A stretch of DNA of 64,000 bases from assembly GCA_041917215.1 (NCBI GenBank), contig JAYRYC010000005.1:103687-167686 (forward strand). The letters are read 5' to 3'. The position numbers and the translations under genes are program-made. Below are positions 28,954 to 48,867 of this stretch, piece by piece. Source of the stretch: Tagaea sp. (GTDB lineage: Bacteria; Pseudomonadota; Alphaproteobacteria; CACIAM-22H2). Every line of letters begins with the position of its first letter. Within the stretch, counting starts at the first letter, position 1. The notes below the pieces were generated by a model. That model searched no databases. It worked only from the letters and a program-made list of their open reading frames with translations, and was not told the origin of the DNA.

Positions 28954-29601
28954 ATGCCCGCAGCGATGGAGGAGCTGACTTACCGCCATCTGCTGTGGGC
29001 CTACGCCAACGGGATATTCCCGATGGCGCAGACCGCCGACGACCCGAAAATCGGCTGGTACGATCCCGATCCGCGCGGCGTGCTTCCCTTGGACGGCGTC
29101 CATATCCCCCGCTCGCTCGCCAAGCGCCTGCGCAAAAACCCGTTCGAGTTCCGCATCGACACGGCGTTCGCGGCGGTGATGGAAGGCTGTGCTGCGCGCG
29201 CCTCGACCTGGATCAACAAAACGATCCGCGATCTCTATCGCGAACTTCACGAAGCCGGCCACGCGCATTCGGTCGAGGCGTGGGCCGGCGGCGAGCTCGC
29301 CGGCGGGCTTTATGGCGTGCGATTGGGATCGGCGTTTTTCGGCGAAAGCATGTTCGCGCGCCGGGACGACGCGTCGAAAGCCGCCCTCGTCCATCTGGTC
29401 GCGCGTTTGCGCGCGGGCGGCTTCGTGCTGCTGGATACGCAGATGACGACCGAGCATATGGCGCGTTTCGGCACGGTCGAGATTTCGCGCGCCGAATATC
29501 GCCGCCGCTTGGCGCGCGCGTTGAAAGGCGTGGCGCCGTTTACGGAAATTCCGCAAGCGCGCATCGACGCCGAGTTTTCCAAACTGATCGGCCGGGGTTA
29601 A
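28954..29601 (+). CDS. aat: Leucyl/phenylalanyl-tRNA--protein transferase
   Basis: The protein has the motif [13 protein letters not shown] and the L/F-transferase GNAT-like C-terminal half. Confidence 0.85.
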
Positions 29602-29603
29602 GC

Positions 29604-29680
29604 CGGCCTCGCCCTTCGACAAGCTGAGGGTGAGGCCGAAGGAAAAGCCTCATGGTGAGCCTGTCGAACCATGAGGTCCG
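29604..29680. repeat. Copy 1 of a double-hairpin intergenic repeat (REP/MITE-like)
   Basis: Hairpin A is GGCCTCGCCC-ttcgacaagctga-GGGTGAGGCC (one G·U position). Hairpin B is CCTCATGG-tgagcctgtcgaa-CCATGAGG. The B module (cctcatggtgagcctgtcgaaccatgaggtc) is identical in the second copy at 45.3 kb. It sits right after the aat stop, in a terminator-like position. Confidence 0.7.
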
Positions 29681-42089: not shown

Positions 42090-42557
42090 ATGACCGGCAC
42101 GATCGACGCTCGCCTCAAACAACTCGGCATCGAATTGCCGCCCGGCTCCGCCCCGGCGGCGAATTACGTGCCCTTCGTCGTGACCGGCAAGCTCGTGTTC
42201 ATCGCCGGCCAGATTTCACAGAAGGACGGCAAGCCGGAGTTTTTGGGCAAGCTCGGCCGCGAGTTCGGCGTGGCGGAAGGCCAGCAGGCCGCGCGCCTAT
42301 GCGCGCTCAGCATCCTGTCGCATCTCAAGACGGCCGCCGGCGGCGATCTCGACAAGGTCGTGCGCTGCGTGCGCCTGGGCGGCTTCGTCAACGCGACACC
42401 CGAATTCACCGACCATCCCGCCGTGATCAACGGGGCGTCGGACATGATCGTCGAAATCTTCGGCGACAAGGGCAAACATGCGCGCGCCGCCGTGGGCACG
42501 TCGTCGCTGCCGCGCGGCGTGGCGGTCGAGATCGACGCGATCTTCGAACTCGCGTGA
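42090..42557 (+). CDS. RidA/YjgF/UK114-family protein, paralogue 1
   Basis: The 155-aa protein has the YjgF-like fold sequence and ends in the conserved R..VEIDAIFEL region. Confidence 0.75.
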   Translation: MTGTIDARLKQLGIELPPGSAPAANYVPFVVTGKLVFIAGQISQKDGKPEFLGKLGREFGVAEGQQAARLCALSILSHLKTAAGGDLDKVVRCVRLGGFVNATPEFTDHPAVINGASDMIVEIFGDKGKHARAAVGTSSLPRGVAVEIDAIFELA

Positions 42558-42994
42558 CTTTGGGCGAACGCGTCGCGAAGGCCGGGCTGGTTCTGCCGCC
42601 CGCCTTCGCGCCGGTCGCAAGCTATGCCGGTATCGTGCGGGCGGGCGCGCAACTCCATGTCTCCGGCATGGGCCCCACACAGGGCAAGGCGATCGTCGAA
42701 AGCGGCAAGATCGCGGACGGCCGCGATCTCGACAAGGCGCAGCGCGCCGCGCATCTGACCGCGCTGAACCTGCTGGCGCAGATCGACGCGAATATGCGCG
42801 TGATGCCGGTCAAAATTTTCGCGCTGGTGAACGCGGGCCCCGAATTCACGGCGCTGGACGAGGCGATCGAAACCGCCCGCAAGCTTTTCGCCGATCTGTT
42901 CGGCCATCCGGGGGCGTGGACGATCGTCGGCGCCCCCGCCCTGCCATTCGCCATCACGACCGAGATGGAAGCGATTTTCGCCCTGGAAGATTAG
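42554..42994 (+). CDS. RidA/YjgF-family protein, paralogue 2 (GTG start overlapping upstream stop)
   Basis: It is translated from the GTG at 42554 (GTGA overlap with the upstream stop): VTLGERVAKAGLVLPP...TEMEAIFALED. It is collinear with paralogue 1. The track hides it in the tail of a spurious 494-aa ORF. Confidence 0.65.
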   Translation: MTLGERVAKAGLVLPPAFAPVASYAGIVRAGAQLHVSGMGPTQGKAIVESGKIADGRDLDKAQRAAHLTALNLLAQIDANMRVMPVKIFALVNAGPEFTALDEAIETARKLFADLFGHPGAWTIVGAPALPFAITTEMEAIFALED

Positions 42995-43018: not shown

Positions 43019-44170
43019 ATGCCCGATGGCGCGCTGACGCTGAAGATCGACGCGGTCGAAAGCCTGGCCGCGATCACCCCCGCGGAATGGGATGCGTGCG
43101 CCGGTGCGGATAATCCGTTTTTGAGCCACGCCTTCCTGTCGGCGCTGGAAGATTCGGGCAGCGTGGGCCCGCGCACCGGCTGGGCGGCGCATCACCTGGT
43201 CGCGCGCGACGACGCGGGCACGCTGGTCGGCGCCGTGCCGCTTTACGCCAAAAGTCACAGCCAGGGCGAATACGTCTTCGACCATAGCTGGGCGCAGGCC
43301 TATCAGAACGCCGGCGGGCGCTATTACCCGAAGCTGCAAGCCTGCGTGCCGTTCACGCCCGTTCCCGGCGCGCGATTGCTCGCAAGGCCCGGCGAAAGCC
43401 GCGACGCGGTGCGCGAAGGCCTCGCACAAACCCTGGCCGGTTTGCCGCGCTCCAGCGGCGTGTCCTCGCTGCACGTCACGTTCTGCGACCAAAGCGACGC
43501 CGAGCTGCTCGCCGAAAACGGCTTCGCGTTGCGCCGGGGCGTGCAGTTCCATTGGGAAAATCGCGGCTATGGCAGCTTCGACGATTTTCTGGGCGCGCTG
43601 TCGCATTCGCGGCGCAAGGCGATCAAGCGCGAGCGGCGCGACATTGCCGCGACCGGGATCGAGTTCGTAGGCCTGACCGGCGGCGATTTGCTGCGCGAGC
43701 ATTGGAGCGCGTTCTTCGCGTTCTACATCTCGACCTCCGACCGCAAATGGGGCAATCCCTATCTCACGCGCCGCTTTTTCGATCTGCTGCATGATCGCCT
43801 GGCGGACAAAGTGCTGCTGATCCTGGGCCGCAAGGACGGCGAATGGGTGTGCGGCGCGCTGAACCTGATCGGTAGCGACACGTTGTACGGCCGCAATTGG
43901 GGCGCTTCGGTCGATCTGCCGTTCCTGCATTTCGAAGCGTGCTACTACCAAGCGCTCGACTTCGCGATCGCGCGGGGATTGAAACGCGTCGAAGCGGGGG
44001 CCCAAGGCGAGCACAAGCTGCAACGCGGCTATTTACCCGTGTCGACATGGAGCGCGCATGCGCTGCGCGATCCGGGTTTCGAGAAAGCCGTGCGCGATTT
44101 CTGCCGCGCCGAGGACGACGCGATGCGCGCCCATATCGACGAGCTCGCTGCCGAAGGGCCCTATAAATGA
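43019..44170 (+). CDS. GNAT-fold acyltransferase of the FemAB-like / BioF2-like (DUF482) family
   Basis: The 383-aa protein starts ...NPFLSHAFLSALEDSGSVGPRTGW... and its C-terminal half is GNAT-like. It is typical of the peptidoglycan-interpeptide-bridge-like acyltransferase family of unknown function. Confidence 0.6.
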   Translation: MPDGALTLKIDAVESLAAITPAEWDACAGADNPFLSHAFLSALEDSGSVGPRTGWAAHHLVARDDAGTLVGAVPLYAKSHSQGEYVFDHSWAQAYQNAGGRYYPKLQACVPFTPVPGARLLARPGESRDAVREGLAQTLAGLPRSSGVSSLHVTFCDQSDAELLAENGFALRRGVQFHWENRGYGSFDDFLGALSHSRRKAIKRERRDIAATGIEFVGLTGGDLLREHWSAFFAFYISTSDRKWGNPYLTRRFFDLLHDRLADKVLLILGRKDGEWVCGALNLIGSDTLYGRNWGASVDLPFLHFEACYYQALDFAIARGLKRVEAGAQGEHKLQRGYLPVSTWSAHALRDPGFEKAVRDFCRAEDDAMRAHIDELAAEGPYK

Positions 44171-45303
44171 GCCTGCCCGCGATCCGAGATTTCGCGCGCG
44201 AAGGCTACGATCCCGCGCGTTATCAAGCGCTGGGGCCCGATTGGTTCCTCGCCGTCGCGGATGTGGAGGCGAGCACGAAGCTCGCCGGGGCGGGCCGCGA
44301 CCGCGACGTGAATTTCGTCGCCGGGGCGGCCGTTGCCGTGCTGTCCACCGTCGCGACGAAGCCACCCGACATGACCGCCTGCCAATTCGGCGGCGACGGC
44401 GCCATCGCCGCCGTGTCGCCGGGCTGCGAAGCCGCGACGCGCGCCGCGTTGGCGGCGCTGGCGCATTGGGCGGCGGCGGAGATCGACATTCCCTTGCGCG
44501 TCGGCCTCGTGCCCGTGAAGGCGTTGATCGACGCGGGCCACGATGCGCGCGCGGCGTTGCAGGATTTCGGCGGCGGCAATGTGTTCGGCCAATTCCTCGG
44601 CTCGGGCATCGCGGCGGCCGACGCTTGGGTCAAAGCCGACGGCAAATGGCGCATCGATCCCGCCCCCGGTGAATTGCCGGGGATCGAGGGCTTGTCGTGC
44701 CGCTGGCAGCCGGTCCCTTCACGGCGCGGCCATGTGCTGTGCGTGATCGTCGATCCCGCCCCCGGTGCGGCGGGCGAAGCGGCCCTGGCGCGCTTGCTGG
44801 CCGATTTCGAGCGCATCGTGCCCGGCGCGACCGCGGCCCCGCTGGGCAATGGCGATACGCTCGAACCCAAAGGGATCCCCGCCTGGCGCGCCTTGCGCAA
44901 CGAGATGCGCGCGCAGAAACCGGGTGCACGGCTCAAGCGCCTGGCGGCGGCGATCGGCGGGATGATGATCCTGAAGACCGTCCACGCACTGGGCGGCAAA
45001 TGGGGCCGCATCGACACGAAGAATTATACGCGCGGCCTTGCCGAACGTTCCGACCACCGCAAGCTCGCCGGCGGCCCGCGCTTCGTGCTGGATGTGACCG
45101 ACGCGGAAGAAGCGGCGATCCAGGCCGCCCTGGCGCGCGAGGAGAACGCGGGCGCCATCGCGTTCGGCACGGCGCGCGCCGACAGCACGACGATCACCTG
45201 CCTGGTCGGCGATTTCATGGCCGACCGGCATGTCCATTTCGTCGATGGCGACGGGTTGGGTTTCTGGCGGGCGGCCAGCGCACTTAAAGCCAAACGCACT
45301 TAG
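44167..45303 (+). CDS. Nucleotidyl-cyclase-fold protein (class III cyclase-like, possibly DUF3095)
   Basis: The N-terminal domain FLAVADVEASTKL...FGGDGAIAAV...LRVGLVPVKALIDAG has the same arrangement as class III cyclase motifs (F-DI-GFT ... IGDA-MAVF ... LR-GIH-G-V). Its ATG overlaps the GNAT gene stop (ATGA). Confidence 0.5.
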   Translation: MSLPAIRDFAREGYDPARYQALGPDWFLAVADVEASTKLAGAGRDRDVNFVAGAAVAVLSTVATKPPDMTACQFGGDGAIAAVSPGCEAATRAALAALAHWAAAEIDIPLRVGLVPVKALIDAGHDARAALQDFGGGNVFGQFLGSGIAAADAWVKADGKWRIDPAPGELPGIEGLSCRWQPVPSRRGHVLCVIVDPAPGAAGEAALARLLADFERIVPGATAAPLGNGDTLEPKGIPAWRALRNEMRAQKPGARLKRLAAAIGGMMILKTVHALGGKWGRIDTKNYTRGLAERSDHRKLAGGPRFVLDVTDAEEAAIQAALAREENAGAIAFGTARADSTTITCLVGDFMADRHVHFVDGDGLGFWRAASALKAKRT

Positions 45304-45327
45304 AGTTTATTGGGACCGATCTTGGTC

Positions 45328-45419
45328 CGGCCTCACCCTTCGACATGGGCGTCTATTGGCGGCCACAGGGTGAGGCCGAAAATAGACCTCATGGTGAGCC
45401 TGTCGAACCATGAGGTCAG
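45328..45419. repeat. Copy 2 of the double-hairpin intergenic repeat
   Basis: Hairpin A is GGCCTCACCC...GGGTGAGGCC with a longer loop insert. Hairpin B, CCTCATGG-tgagcctgtcgaa-CCATGAGG, is identical to copy 1. It lies between the convergent cyclase-like gene and the cNMP-binding gene. Confidence 0.7.
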
Positions 45420-45457
45420 ACGAGCACGCCCTCAAAGCCAAACGCGCGGCGTGACGC

Positions 45458-45910
45458 TTACGCCGGCGGCGCTTTGGGGTCGACGTCGTTTTTGATCTCG
45501 ACGCCCATTTCCTTGAGCTTGGCGCGCAGCACTTCGTTCTGCGTTTGCGAGATCAAGGCATTGCGCGTCATCACGCGCAGATTTTCGACGAACATGCGCA
45601 GCAAGGCGCGCACGAACGGGTCGGCTTGGCGCATCTTCTCGGTGAATTGATCGGCCGAAACCAGAATGACGGTCACGTTGGTCGAAGCGATGGCGTCCGC
45701 CATGCGCTTCTTGCCGTCGATCAGCGCCATCTCGCCGAAAATCTCGCCGGCGGCGAGCTGGGCGATGCGCTTGGTCTGGCCGCCCACGTTGCGCACGATA
45801 TCGACCGTGCCGCTTTCGATCACGTAAGCCGCGTCGCCCGCGTCGCCGGTGCGGAAGATCGTCCGCCCATTGGCGAAATGCTTGCGGGGAAGAATCGTTT
45901 GCTGCGACAT
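45458..45910 (-). CDS. Stand-alone cyclic-nucleotide-binding domain protein
   Basis: The protein has the cNMP-binding beta-roll motif region (IFRTGDAGDAAYVIESGTVDIV...GEIFGEMALI...R-A). It is 150 aa with no DNA-binding domain. Confidence 0.7.
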   Translation of the reverse strand: MSQQTILPRKHFANGRTIFRTGDAGDAAYVIESGTVDIVRNVGGQTKRIAQLAAGEIFGEMALIDGKKRMADAIASTNVTVILVSADQFTEKMRQADPFVRALLRMFVENLRVMTRNALISQTQNEVLRAKLKEMGVEIKNDVDPKAPPA

Positions 45911-45981
45911 CCGTCGAGTATCGCGCGATTCCCCCGGCCCCCAAAGCGAAACGGGCGGGGTTTCCCCCGCCCGTCCGGTCC

Positions 45982-48348
45982 TTACTCCACCATCGCGGGG
46001 AGCTTGGGAACGTCCTTTTCGGGATTGGCCGGCGGCGGGTAGTCGAAAGCGAGCTTGCCGTTTTCGACCTTCACGCGGACCTTGCCGCCCTTCGCCAAGC
46101 GGCCGAACAGCAATTCGTCCGCCAGCGGCTTCTTGATGTTCTCCTGGATCACGCGGCCGAGCGGACGCGCGCCATAGAGCTCGTCATAGCCCTTCTCGGC
46201 GAGCCAGGTGCGCGCCTCGTCCGACACCGACAGCACGACCTGACGGTCGGTCAGCTGGCGCTCCAGCTCGCCGACGAATTTGTCGACGACCTTGTTGATC
46301 ACTTCCGGCGACAGCCGCGCGAACGCGACGGTCGCGTCCAGACGGTTGCGGAATTCCGGCGTGAACATCCGCTTGATCGCTTCTTCGTCCTCGCCCACGC
46401 GCATTTCGTTGCCGAAACCGATCGCGGGCTTGGCCTGTTCGGCCGCCCCGGCGTTCGTGGTCATGATCAGGATCACGTTGCGGAAATCGACGTTCTTGCC
46501 GTTATGGTCCGTCAACTTCCCGTGATCCATGACCTGGAGCAGGATGTTGTAGAGATCGGGATGCGCCTTCTCGATTTCGTCGAGCAGCAGCACGCAATGC
46601 GGATGCTGGTCGATCGCGTCGGTCAGCAGACCGCCCTGATCGAAGCCGACATAGCCCGGCGGGGCGCCGATCAAGCGCGAGACCGTGTGGCGCTCCATGT
46701 ATTCGGACATGTCGAAGCGCTTCAATTCCACGCCCAGCGACAAGGCCAATTGGCGCGCCACTTCCGTCTTGCCGACACCCGTGGGGCCGGAGAACAGATA
46801 CGAGCCGATCGGCTTTTCGGGTTCACGCAAACCCGCACGCGCCAGCTTGATCGCCGCGCACAAGGCTTCGATCGCCTTGTCCTGGCCGAACACGACGCCC
46901 TTCAGCTGCTTGTCGAGATTCTGCAGCACTTCCTTGTCGTCGGTCGAAACCGATTTGGGAGGAATGCGCGCGATCTTGGCGACGGCCGCTTCGACGTCCT
47001 TGACGTTGATCGTCTTCTTGCGGCGTGCGGCCGGCAGCAGCATTTGCGCCGCCCCCACTTCGTCGATCACGTCGATCGCCTTGTCGGGCAGCTTGCGGTC
47101 GTTGACGTAGCGCGCCGACAATTCGACCGCCGCGCGCACCGCGTCCTTGGTGTAGCGGACCTTATGATGCTCCTCGTAGTAAGGCTTGATGCCTTCGAGG
47201 ATCTTGATCGCGTCCTCGACCGACGGCTCGTTGACGTCGATCTTCTGGAAGCGGCGGACCAGCGCGCGGTCCTTCTCGAAATAGGTCCGGTATTCCTTGT
47301 AGGTCGTCGAGCCGATGCAGCGCAGGCCGCCCGAGGCGAGGGCGGGCTTCAGCAGGTTCGATGCGTCCATCGAGCCGCCCGAAGTGGCGCCGGCACCGAT
47401 CACGGTGTGGATTTCGTCGATGAACAGGATCGCGTTTTCCTGCGCTTCGAGTTCCGACAGAACGGCCTTCAACCGTTCCTCGAAATCGCCGCGATAACGC
47501 GTGCCCGCCAGCAACGTGCCCATATCGATCGCGTAGATCACCGCGTTCTGGAGCACTTCGGGCACTTCGCCCTTCACGACCTTGCGCGCGAGGCCTTCGG
47601 CGATCGCCGTTTTGCCCACGCCCGGATCGCCCACGTAAAGCGGGTTGTTCTTGTAGCGCCGGCACAGGATCTGGATCGTGCGCTCGACCTCGGCCTCGCG
47701 GCCGATCAGCGGATCGATCTTGCCCTGCGCGGCCTTCTTGTTGAGGTTGACGCAGTAAGCTTGGAGCGCGCCTTCCTTCGGCTTCGCCCCTTGCTTGCCT
47801 TCGCCGCCGCCGGATTGACGCTCCGGCCCGCGATCGGCGGGGCCGCGCTCGCCCGATTGGCCGGTCGCCTGTTCCTCGTCGGCGCCGCGCACGCGACGCG
47901 GCTCGGACTTGCCCGGCACCTTCGCGACGCCATGGCTGATGTAGTTGACCGCGTCGAGGCGCGACATGTCCTGCTCTTGCAGGAAATAGACGGCATGGCT
48001 CTCGCGCTCGGAGAACATCGCGACCAGCACGTTCGCACCGGTCACTTCCTCGCGGCCCGACGATTGAACATGGATCGCGGCGCGTTGCAGCACGCGCTGG
48101 AAGCCGGCGGTCGGCTTCGCTTCGCCGCCGCGGCTGGTGACCAGCCCCGCGAGCTCGTTGTCGAGATATTGGGTCAGGTCCCGGCGCAGCTTGTCGAGAT
48201 CGACGCCGCATGCGCGCAAGACCGCGATCGCGTCCTGATCTTCGGTCAGGGCCAGCAGAAGATGTTCGAGAGTCGCATACTCGTGACGCCGCTCGTTGGC
48301 GAGGGCGAGCGCGCGGTGCAGGCTCTGTTCGAGATTGCGCGACAGCAT
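45982..48348 (-). CDS. clpA: ATP-dependent Clp protease ATP-binding subunit ClpA
   Basis: The ATG at 48348 gives [34 protein letters not shown] (ClpA N-domain). It has two AAA+ modules (GDPGVGKT and GPTGVGKT) and lies downstream of clpS. Confidence 0.9.
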
Positions 48349-48531
48349 CGAGAGGTCCGCTCCCTTTCCGTCACGCCCCGTCGCGCAATTGCGGCGGAGC
48401 GGCCCACAAACCGGGCTTTGCAAGCCTCGCGCCGGGACGCCCGGCGCGAGTCCTAAGACTATAAATGTAAGTGCGCTGCGGTGACTTTGCCAGTGATGGG
48501 CGGCGAAGAGCCGCGAATGCCGGAAAACTTA

Positions 48532-48867
48532 TCACTCTTTTTCGAGTGTGCAGCGCAGCGGATGCTGATTCCGCCGGGCGAACTCGGTCACTTGATTGAC
48601 CTTCGTCTCGGCGACTTCATAGGTGAACACGCCGCACACGCCCACGCCGCGGCGGTGGACATGCATCATGATCGTCGTCGCTTCCTGGCGGGATTTGCCG
48701 AAAAACCGCTCCAAGACGTGCACGACGAATTCCATCGGCGTGTAATCGTCGTTGAGCATCAGCACCTTGTACATCGCCGGCTTCTTGGTGCGGGTGCGCG
48801 TTTGCAGCGCAATGCCCGAACCGTCGTCGCCGCCGCCGGTGCGATCGGTATCTTTGTCCTCGCTCAT
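48532..48867 (-). CDS. clpS: Clp protease adaptor ClpS
   Basis: The core reads [62 protein letters not shown]. Confidence 0.9.

What the first reader, a model, noticed from the sequence alone, without database searches (positions are those of the whole stretch)
43019..45910. Candidate second-messenger module: FemAB-like GNAT acyltransferase, nucleotidyl-cyclase-fold protein and stand-alone cNMP-binding protein
The GNAT (DUF482-like) gene and the cyclase-like gene overlap by ATGA, so they are translationally coupled. The cyclase-like N-terminal domain keeps the metal-binding Asp context (VADVEAST) and the FGGDGAIAAV block of class III cyclases. An effector-less cyclic-nucleotide-binding protein lies convergently after the repeat. 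A cyclase-fold protein wired to an acyltransferase, with a cNMP receiver nearby, is not a described pathway as far as I know.
Basis: partly seen in the sequence, partly recalled or inferred. Interest (0 to 1): 0.55.

Follow-up and report, generated by a model that had tools for sequence, protein, structure and literature searches.

The report
Cyclase-fold gene beside unrelated neighbours
The three genes are real and the middle one is predicted to have a double adenylate-cyclase-type fold, but comparison with about 160 related loci shows the trio is a recent gene-order accident in one small bacterial clade, not a conserved signalling pathway.

Summary
Observation confirmed. The window holds a FemAB_like/GNAT gene (43019-44170, PF04339, E 3e-157) and a 378-aa gene (44167-45303) that overlaps it by ATGA. 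A 150-aa cNMP-binding-only gene (45458-45910) lies convergent to them.

The "module" is not supported.
- FemAB_like-DUF3095 adjacency occurs only in a narrow Tagaea-like subclade (six loci, DUF3095 at least 76% identical).
- Sister genomes keep clpS-clpA-(CoA transferase)-cNMP convergent with RidA-FemAB_like, with no DUF3095 between them. In one of these genomes DUF3095 sits elsewhere on the chromosome.
- None of about 155 other DUF3095 loci has a clear FemAB_like or cNMP-binding neighbour, or any conserved partner.

The most likely reading is a soluble NTP-binding, cyclase-type enzyme of unknown product that was relocated between two unrelated transcription units. Interest is low to moderate, and it rests on the DUF3095 family rather than on this locus.

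The parts
42090..42557 (+). RidA/YjgF-like gene 1 (155 aa), first gene of the + strand unit
   Evidence: PF14588 E 2e-24 and PF01042 E 1.5e-12. Its ortholog lies directly upstream of FemAB_like in L080/L081 at 74% identity.
42554..42994 (+). RidA-like gene 2 (146 aa). Its GTG start overlaps the RidA1 stop (GTGA).
   Evidence: Sequence read. PF01042 E 8e-8. Present in L001, L002, L026, L164 and L165; absent in L068, L080 and L081.
43019..44170 (+). FemAB_like (PF04339) double-GNAT-type acyl/aminoacyl-transferase homolog, 383 aa
   Evidence: PF04339 E 2.9e-157 over 16-383, and PF13480 E 8e-10. No solved homolog found by sequence. Orthologs at 68-69% identity in L080/L081.
44167..45303 (+). DUF3095 (PF11294) protein, 378 aa, with two fused class III cyclase-homology domains. 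N domain is about aa 1-172, with D32 (44260-44262), D77 (44395-44397) and R111 (44497-44499). C domain is about aa 173-378, with C178, K299, C345, H355, H357, D360 and K374.
45304..45457 (.). About 150-nt multi-hairpin repeat element inserted at the 3' end of DUF3095, flanked by an imperfect duplication of ...AAAGCCAAACGC...
   Evidence: Absent in L068, L001 and L002, where the DUF3095 and cNMP genes abut. A second copy lies at about 29600-29679. Fold z-score -5.0.
45458..45910 (-). Stand-alone cyclic-nucleotide-binding (CNB) domain protein, 150 aa, last gene of the clpS-clpA unit
   Evidence: PF00027 E 3.5e-21 over 10-95, with no other domain. The PBC sequence FGEMALIDGKKRMAD aligns with the FGE...R of PKG/PKA. 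Syntenic with clpA in L080, L081, L164 and L165.
45982..48423 (-). clpA (the likely true start is near 48348)
   Evidence: ORF. 93% identical to ClpA of L080. Pfam architecture of the orthologs.
48532..48867 (-). clpS
   Evidence: ORF. 83% identical to the PF02617 genes of L080/L081.

Best explanation
The region is the meeting point of two convergent and functionally unrelated transcription units in a Tagaea-like alphaproteobacterium. One unit is ridA-like, ridA-like2, femAB_like, DUF3095 on the + strand. The other is clpS, clpA, CNB gene on the - strand.

Shown:
- DUF3095 is predicted with high confidence to be a single-chain pseudo-heterodimer of two class III cyclase-homology domains.
- This is the architecture of the clade-A Pycsar cyclase PaPycC, of soluble AC, and of the C1-C2 core of membrane ACs.

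Inferred:
- The N domain acts as the C1-like half. It supplies the two-metal site (D32 at the end of beta1, D77 in the beta2-beta3 turn) and a phosphate-binding Arg (R111 in an RxG motif on beta4).
- The C domain supplies the complementary face (K299, D360, K374).
- One NTP-Mg2+ is bound at the interdomain cleft and probably undergoes a cyclase-type nucleotidyl transfer. The product is unknown.
- Because the canonical Asn/Arg transition-state pair is replaced, activity or chemistry may differ from cAMP or cGMP synthesis.

The link to FemAB_like (ATGA overlap) and the closeness to the CNB gene arose when DUF3095 came to lie between the previously abutting femAB_like and CNB genes in one shallow subclade. 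They do not define a conserved pathway.
For: Fold:
- AF2 model pLDDT 90.3.
- Foldseek top hits are sAC and AC8.
- 6YII is a clade-A PycC with two consecutive cyclase domains (PMC11224242).

Residues:
- D32, D77 and G76-D77-G78 are invariant, and R111 is 98% conserved, in 138-140 family representatives at 26-63% identity.
- hhalign of the N domain against 120 PF00211 cyclases puts D32 on the FADIxGFT Asp and D77 on the IGD Asp (P 7e-4).
- The extended low-confidence alignment keeps RxG on beta4.

Synteny:
- RidA-(RidA2)-FemAB_like-DUF3095 convergent with cNMP-(CoA transferase)-clpA-clpS is found in L001, L002, L068, L164 and L165. L026 shows the upstream part (RidA through DUF3095) before its contig ends. 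DUF3095 identity is 76-97%.
- In L080 and L081 (ClpA 93%, FemAB_like 68-69%, CNB 62-67% identical) FemAB_like and the CNB gene overlap tail-to-tail with no DUF3095 between them.
- L080 comes from the same chromosome (OZ245864.1) as L010, which carries DUF3095 about 0.8 Mb away next to an SDR gene and a histidine kinase gene.
- 75 of 79 genome loci have neither a FemAB_like nor a CNB neighbour. Among 80 diverse metagenome loci there were 0 CNB hits and 1 weak GNAT hit (E 6e-6). No neighbour cluster occurs in more than 7 loci.
- No domain fusions were found in the longer family members.
Against: - The ATGA overlap and an SD-like motif suggest real co-translation of FemAB_like and DUF3095 in this clade. 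The pairing has been stable across about 24% protein divergence.
- A CNB receptor right next to a cyclase-fold gene is what a signalling pair would look like. Action in trans cannot be excluded by synteny.
- Catalytic activity is not shown.
- No sequence model (PF00211, PycC in PADLOC, PDB profiles) detects the protein.
- The residue mapping rests on a weak hhalign match (probability 26%) plus secondary-structure position, not on a superposition I could inspect.
Confidence: 0.7

Rival explanations
1. The trio is a true second-messenger module. DUF3095 makes a cyclic nucleotide, the neighbouring stand-alone CNB protein senses it, and FemAB_like is co-regulated or acts on the product.
For: - Cyclase fold with an intact metal site.
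- The CNB protein keeps the PBC Glu and Arg.
- The closest structural match is a Pycsar cyclase, and Pycsar systems pair a cyclase with a CNB-containing effector.
- ATGA coupling to FemAB_like.
- The arrangement is kept in six related loci.
Against: - The CNB gene stays with clpS-clpA, and FemAB_like stays with RidA, in sister genomes that lack DUF3095 at this site.
- There were 0 CNB neighbours in 80 metagenome loci and in 75 other genome loci.
- The CNB gene is convergent, not co-transcribed.
- It has no effector domain (no TIR or TM) and matches PADLOC PycTIR models only over the CNB part. DUF3095 matches no PycC model.
Confidence: 0.08
2. FemAB_like and DUF3095 form a newly evolved two-enzyme operon in this clade. 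One possibility is that a nucleotidyl-activated intermediate is made by one enzyme and transferred by the other. The CNB gene would be unrelated.
For: A 4-nt overlap with an SD-like motif. The overlap is conserved in L164 and L165 (5001-5004) and in L001, L026 and L068, where the two tblastn matches meet at a single coordinate. In L002 the matches are about 12 nt apart, so the pair is adjacent but no overlap was shown.
Against: - The pairing is confined to one shallow clade. Everywhere else DUF3095 is a stand-alone gene with lineage-specific neighbours such as Tpx, SDR, MutL, YccF, CBS, histidine kinase and LuxR-type regulators.
- FemAB_like exists without it in sister genomes.
- 4-nt overlaps are common between unrelated genes in these compact high-GC genomes.
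Confidence: 0.12
3. DUF3095 is a catalytically inactive pseudo-cyclase. It would be a nucleotide-binding sensor or scaffold that keeps the metal/NTP site but does not cyclise. 6YII was originally deposited in this spirit, as an 'adenylyl cyclase-like ATP-binding protein'.
For: - No conserved Asn or Arg on either helix that is topologically equivalent to alpha4. Conserved residues there are G145/G147/A151/K156 and G365/A369/A370/K374.
- The window's clade has also lost D301 and H336, which are conserved in about 80% of the family.
- No sequence-level match to any cyclase model.
- The 6YII deposition title.
Against: - D32, D77 and the GGDG loop are invariant, and R111 is near-invariant (98%), across about 1,400 family clusters. 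That fits selection for metal-dependent chemistry.
- 6YII itself was later classed as a clade-A pyrimidine cyclase.
- Pycsar cyclases use non-canonical specificity residues.
Confidence: 0.3

Closest known systems
Clade-A Pycsar pyrimidine cyclase PaPycC (PDB 6YII)
   Different: No match to any PADLOC PycC model and 14% identity. There is no adjacent CNB-TIR or CNB-TM effector and no conserved two-gene operon. DUF3095 is chromosomal and vertically inherited across Rhodospirillales in housekeeping contexts.
Soluble adenylyl cyclase ADCY10 (4CLF/4USU) and the membrane AC C1-C2 core (6R3Q, 8BV5)
   Different: The canonical alpha4 Asn/Arg pair is absent from both halves. The chain ends right after alpha4', so there is no beta7-beta8 loop Lys. 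The C domain has a long helical insert (about aa 200-293) and family-invariant C178, C345, H355 and H357. TM-scores are only 0.35-0.41.
Class III nucleotidyl cyclase domain, PF00211 (single-domain homodimeric bacterial ACs and GCs)
   Different: Below Pfam detection, with only PF11294 hit. hhalign probability is 26%. The domains are fused in tandem rather than forming a homodimer.
GGDEF diguanylate cyclases and Cas10/mCpol palm domains
   Different: Lower scores, and only one domain aligns. There are no I-site or GGDEF-specific motifs. A separate GGDEF gene follows DUF3095 in only 2 of 79 genome loci.
FemABX-type aminoacyl-transferases / PF04339 FemAB_like family (for the upstream gene)
   Same: Full-length PF04339 match at E 3e-157, plus the PF13480 GNAT region.
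   Different: Only a marginal match to the PEP-CTERM FemAB equivalog (20 bits against a cutoff of 260). No solved homolog by sequence. The substrate is unknown.
CNB domains of PKG and PKA regulatory subunits, and of the Bd1971 N-terminal domain (for the 150-aa protein)
   Same: phmmer E down to 5e-19. The PBC Glu and Arg align.
   Different: The protein is a single CNB domain plus a helical tail of about 50 aa, with no HTH, kinase, EAL, TIR or TM output. Met and Asp replace the Ser/Thr positions that flank the PBC Arg.

Membership tests
DUF3095 (PF11294) | Full-length match to the family HMM above the gathering score | tested here: met
   233 bits against a cutoff of 22.2, covering 2-374 of 378. 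There are 1,396 related 50%-cluster representatives.
Class III nucleotidyl cyclase (PF00211-type CHD) | Cyclase-homology-domain fold | tested here: met
Class III nucleotidyl cyclase (PF00211-type CHD) | Two metal-binding Asp residues (end of beta1, and the beta2-beta3 turn) | tested here: met
   D32 and D77 are invariant in 140 representatives. They are in register with FADIxGFT and IGD by hhalign and sit at the expected secondary-structure positions.
Class III nucleotidyl cyclase (PF00211-type CHD) | Transition-state Asn and Arg on helix alpha4 | tested here: not met
   No conserved Asn or Arg on helices 146-157 or 365-377. Conserved residues there are Gly, Ala and Lys.
Class III nucleotidyl cyclase (PF00211-type CHD) | Base-specifying Lys/Asp (AC) or Glu/Cys (GC) pair | tested here: inconclusive
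   K299 and D360 are conserved in roughly the right elements of the C domain. The C domain does not align significantly to PF00211 (P 0.33), and no superposition could be inspected.
Class III nucleotidyl cyclase (PF00211-type CHD) | Sequence-level detection by the family model | tested here: not met
   No PF00211 hit at E<=0.1. No PDB cyclase by phmmer or hmmsearch at E<=10. hhalign probability 26%.
Class III nucleotidyl cyclase (PF00211-type CHD) | NTP to cNMP + PPi activity | not testable with these tools
   Needs an enzyme assay.
Pycsar anti-phage system | Cyclase recognised by PycC models | tested here: not met
   No PADLOC hit for DUF3095 at E<=1.
Pycsar anti-phage system | Adjacent co-directional effector with a CNB domain fused to TIR or TM | tested here: not met
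   The CNB protein is convergent and has no second domain. It matches PycTIR models over the CNB part only. There are no CNB neighbours in about 155 other loci.
FemAB_like (PF04339) | Full-length HMM match | tested here: met
   524 bits, 16-383 aligned to 2-368 of 369.
FemAB_like (PF04339) | Aminoacyl-tRNA- or acyl-CoA-dependent transfer activity | not testable with these tools
   No characterised close homolog was found.
Cyclic-nucleotide-binding domain (PF00027) | HMM match and an intact phosphate-binding cassette (Gly-Glu ... Arg) | tested here: met
   75 bits. FGEMALIDGKKRMAD aligns to FGEAALIHNTQRSAT and FGERALLYDEPRSAT of PKG.
Conserved gene module (operon-level functional link) | Adjacency conserved across independent lineages | tested here: not met
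   Found only in six loci of one subclade. Absent in sister genomes and in 75 + 80 other loci.

The most novel reading that the evidence does not exclude
DUF3095 is an active tandem-domain nucleotidyl cyclase that uses a non-canonical catalytic set: Lys in place of the Asn/Arg pair, plus the invariant Cys and His residues. It would make an undescribed nucleotide signal. In this Tagaea subclade it would have been recruited into an operon with a FemAB-type transferase, with the adjacent stand-alone CNB protein as receiver.
Probability: 0.08. Interest if true: 0.7.

Novelty: new member of a known kind. Interest (0 to 1): 0.27.

Why it matters
The proposed GNAT-cyclase-receptor pathway would have been a new signalling design, but comparative genomics argues against it. 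It should not be pursued as a module.

What remains useful is a family-level lead. DUF3095 has about 1,400 clusters at 50% identity and no literature. It is predicted to be a stand-alone double cyclase-domain protein with an invariant two-metal site, and its nearest solved relative is a Pycsar pyrimidine cyclase. A simple NTP-turnover assay on any member could assign a function to the whole family. That assay would also show whether housekeeping relatives of defence cyclases exist.

Tried and rejected
- Sequence searches of DUF3095 against PDB chains gave no cyclase hit: single sequence, the 52-sequence profile and the 140-sequence profile.
- Literature searches for DUF3095, PF11294 and CL0276 found nothing relevant. 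DUF482/PF04339 papers mention the family only in passing. A search for the 6YII paper title found nothing.
- NCBIfam has no model for DUF3095. PADLOC has no hit.
The afdb50 fold library was unavailable.
- Longer family members were scanned for informative domain fusions. None were found.
- Neighbour clustering around 79 genome and 80 metagenome loci gave only lineage-specific neighbours.
- hhalign of the C domain against PF00211 was not significant (P 0.33). The N-versus-C domain duplication signal is weak (P 0.015).
- I considered a Pycsar-like reading because of the 6YII match and the CNB neighbour. I rejected it on PADLOC, orientation, the missing effector domain and synteny.
- I considered a link between FemAB_like (aminoacyl-transferase fold) and the clpS-clpA N-degron machinery.
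- The promoter/terminator scan was uninformative.
Full report
**1. What is in the sequence**

The window has about 65% G+C and its closest relatives are Tagaea-like Rhodospirillales.

- 43019-44170 (+), 383 aa
- 44167-45303 (+), 378 aa
- 45458-45910 (-), 150 aa

The first two overlap as ...TATAAATGAGCC... The TGA stop lies inside the ATGA, and a GAAGGG motif sits 8 nt upstream of the ATG.

Pfam gives these assignments:

| Gene | Pfam family | E-value |
|---|---|---|
| 383-aa | FemAB_like PF04339 (plus Acetyltransf_6) | 2.9e-157 |
| 378-aa | DUF3095 PF11294 | 6e-69 |
| 150-aa | cNMP_binding PF00027, no second domain | 3.5e-21 |

NCBIfam has no model for the middle protein.

Upstream on the same strand lie two RidA/YjgF-like genes. 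They are 42090-42557 and 42554-42994, and they overlap by GTGA. On the minus strand the cNMP gene is the last of clpS (48532-48867), clpA (45982-48423) and the cNMP gene, 71 nt after clpA. The locus is therefore the junction of two convergent units.

**2. The cyclase-like protein**

No paper in the library mentions DUF3095 or PF11294. No solved structure is detectable by sequence, even with family profiles.

An AlphaFold2 model built on 52 homologs is confident, with mean pLDDT 90.3 and pTM 0.88. The fold searches agree with each other:

- Foldseek puts sAC and AC8 on top (E 4e-4 to 7e-4), although TM-scores are only 0.35-0.41.

6YII is the clade-A Pycsar cyclase PaPycC. Clade A is the clade with two consecutive nucleotide cyclase domains (PMC11224242).

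The model's secondary structure fits this picture:

- N half: beta1(27-33) - alpha1 - beta2/beta3(72-83) - alpha2 - beta4(110-116) - beta5/beta6 - alpha4(146-157).
- C half: the same pattern (176-184 ... 298-310, 331-361, 365-377), with a helical insert at about 200-293.

The cyclase fold stands.

**3. Catalytic residues**

An exhaustive search finds 1,396 family representatives at 50% clustering. In 138-140 of them (26-63% identical to the query), the conserved residues include the following. D32, S36, G76, D77, G78, G145, C178, G334, C345, D360 and G365 are invariant; the rest are 90-99% conserved.

- N domain: D32, S36, T37, N49, F74-G75-G76-D77-G78, R111, G145, K156
- C domain: C178-R179-W180, D296, K299, D309, G334, T344-C345, H355, H357, D360, G365, A369, K374

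I fetched 120 real PF00211 cyclases, using a consensus-like seed only to retrieve them. Their precomputed Pfam annotation confirms PF00211. hhalign of the DUF3095 N domain against them gives P 7e-4 and probability 26%. The register places D32 on the Asp of FADIxGFT and D77 on the Asp of IGD. The extended low-confidence alignment also keeps R111-x-G113 on the class III RxG of beta4. From memory of the mammalian AC literature (Tesmer et al. 1999), these correspond to the two metal-binding Asp residues and the phosphate-binding Arg contributed by C1.

By contrast, neither helix in the alpha4 position carries a conserved Asn or Arg. The conserved pattern in both halves is GG-x3-A-x4-K (G146/G147...A151...K156 and G364/G365...A369...K374). 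This pattern also supports an internal duplication, though the signal is weak (P 0.015).

The C domain does not align significantly with PF00211 (P 0.33). Calling K299 and D360 the base-recognition pair is therefore only an inference.

The window's clade has additionally replaced D301 and H336, which about 80% of the family keeps.

The net result is that the metal and phosphate half of the active site is intact and under strong family-wide constraint. The canonical transition-state pair is not present.

**4. The cNMP-binding protein**

It matches PKG, PKA-R and other CNB domains (phmmer E down to 5e-19). Its phosphate-binding cassette FGEMALIDGKKRMAD aligns with FGE...R(S/T)A(T/S), so the Glu and the Arg are retained. 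No output domain is detectable. PADLOC PycTIR models match only through their CNB part.

**5. Is it a module?**

*Genome loci.* Among 79 genome loci encoding DUF3095, FemAB_like lies directly upstream only in L001, L002, L026 and L068 (DUF3095 76-97% identical). The other 75 loci (50-68% identical) have none of the window's neighbours. Two further metagenome contigs at 80% and 76% identity (L164, L165) show the same layout: RidA-RidA2-FemAB_like-DUF3095 convergent with cNMP-CoA_transf_3-clpA-clpS. The arrangement is therefore stable, but only inside one shallow clade.

*Sister genomes.* L080 and L081 share ClpA at 93%, ClpS at 83%, RidA at 74%, FemAB_like at 68-69% and the CNB protein at 62-67% identity. 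They have clpS-clpA-CoA_transf_3-cNMP running into FemAB_like-RidA. The two 3' ends overlap, and no DUF3095 lies between them. L080 comes from chromosome OZ245864.1, which carries its DUF3095 about 0.8 Mb away (L010), beside an SDR gene and a histidine kinase gene.

*Other lineages.* DUF3095 sits beside different genes in each lineage:
- Azospirillum: mutL, a CBS-domain gene, yccF and LuxR-type response regulators
- Magnetospirillum-type loci: tpx

*Diverse metagenome loci.* In 80 diverse loci (36-57% identical to a central family member), an HMM of the CNB family finds no neighbour. phmmer with FemAB_like finds one weak hit more than 2 kb away. No neighbour cluster occurs in more than 7 loci.

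*Other checks.* No longer family member carries an extra Pfam domain. A more distant CNB homolog in Azospirillum (45% identical) lies in yet another context.

The 4-nt overlap is weak evidence by itself. Such overlaps are frequent in these genomes, for example RidA1/RidA2 here and unrelated pairs in L080. From general knowledge, they are the commonest overlap class in prokaryotic operons.

**6. Most likely explanation**

DUF3095 is a soluble, stand-alone, single-chain pseudo-heterodimeric cyclase-type protein. It binds one NTP-Mg2+ at the interdomain cleft through D32, D77 and R111, and it probably performs a nucleotidyl-transfer or cyclisation reaction of unknown product. This activity is inferred. 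A non-catalytic NTP sensor is the main alternative, at about 0.3.

In an ancestor of the window's subclade the gene came to lie between the previously abutting femAB_like and CNB genes and became compacted onto femAB_like. The CNB gene belongs to the clpS-clpA unit and FemAB_like to the RidA unit.

Functional coupling with FemAB_like (about 0.12), or signalling to the adjacent CNB protein (about 0.08), cannot be excluded. Nothing beyond local adjacency supports either.

**7. Comparison with known systems and novelty**

In architecture, the protein resembles clade-A PycC, sAC and the tmAC C1-C2 core. It is not a demonstrable member of PF00211 or of Pycsar. It fails sequence-model detection, lacks the Asn/Arg pair, and has no effector partner (see the membership table).

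All three genes belong to existing Pfam families, and sequence databases already label the middle one "DUF3095 family protein". I could not verify whether Pfam already places DUF3095 in the nucleotide-cyclase clan.

I rate the finding as a new member of a known kind. The proposed pathway is not supported. The residual interest is the uncharacterised DUF3095 family itself.

Noticed in passing
window 45304-45457 and about 29600-29679: A multi-hairpin repeat of about 80-150 nt, REP/MITE-like. Shared core: GGCCTCRCCCTTCGACA...AGGGTGAGGCC...CCTCATGGTGAGCCTGTCGAACCATGAGGTC. The copy at 45304 is an insertion at the very 3' end of DUF3095. It is absent from L068, L001 and L002, it changes the last residues of the protein, and it is flanked by an imperfect duplication of about 17-20 bp (CTTAAAGCCAAACGCAC / CTCAAAGCCAAACGCGC). 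RNA fold z-score is -5.0.
   Followed up: partly
window 42554-42994 (+): A second, divergent RidA-like gene (about 30% identical to RidA1) overlaps the RidA1 stop by GTGA. Its presence varies. It is in L001, L002, L026, L164 and L165. It is missing in L068 (DUF3095 96% identical) and in L080/L081.
   Followed up: partly
between clpA and the cNMP gene: window 45911-45981, compared with L080 4915-5991, L081, L164 and L165: Relatives carry a CoA_transf_3 (PF02515) gene between clpA and the CNB gene. The window has only a 71-nt spacer, and L001 and L068 have a similar short spacer (about 75 nt). This junction gains and loses genes often (RidA2, DUF3095, CoA transferase, repeat element).
   Followed up: no
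DUF3095 residues C178, C345, H355, H357 (window 44698-44700, 45199-45201, 45229-45231, 45235-45237): Two invariant Cys and two near-invariant His in the C-terminal cyclase-like half have no counterpart in canonical class III cyclases. A metal site is conceivable, by analogy with the Zn ribbon needed for activity in clade-D PycC. I could not check spatial clustering without coordinates.
   Followed up: no
L056 7038-8600 and L077 7155-8582: A GGDEF-motif (RLGGDEF) ORF lies immediately downstream of DUF3095, on the same strand, in Novispirillum sp. DQ9 and in one Rhodospirillaceae MAG. That is only 2 of 79 genome loci.
   Followed up: no
Magnetospirillum-type loci (for example L011, L020, L025, L030, L035, L036) and the P0022 contig: A thiol peroxidase (Tpx, Redoxin/AhpC-TSA) gene lies directly upstream of DUF3095 on the same strand in about 8 loci. 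On the P0022 contig the two genes abut exactly. This is the tightest recurrent same-strand neighbour seen among the genome loci (CNB/FemAB pairing aside), and it is still clade-limited.
   Followed up: partly
window 43019-44170 relative to 45982-48867: A FemAB-type (aminoacyl-transferase fold) gene stays near clpS-clpA across the Tagaea clade (L080, L081, L164, L165). This recalls the position of the L/F-transferase gene aat near clpA in E. coli (from memory). A link to N-degron tagging is pure speculation and was not tested.
   Followed up: no
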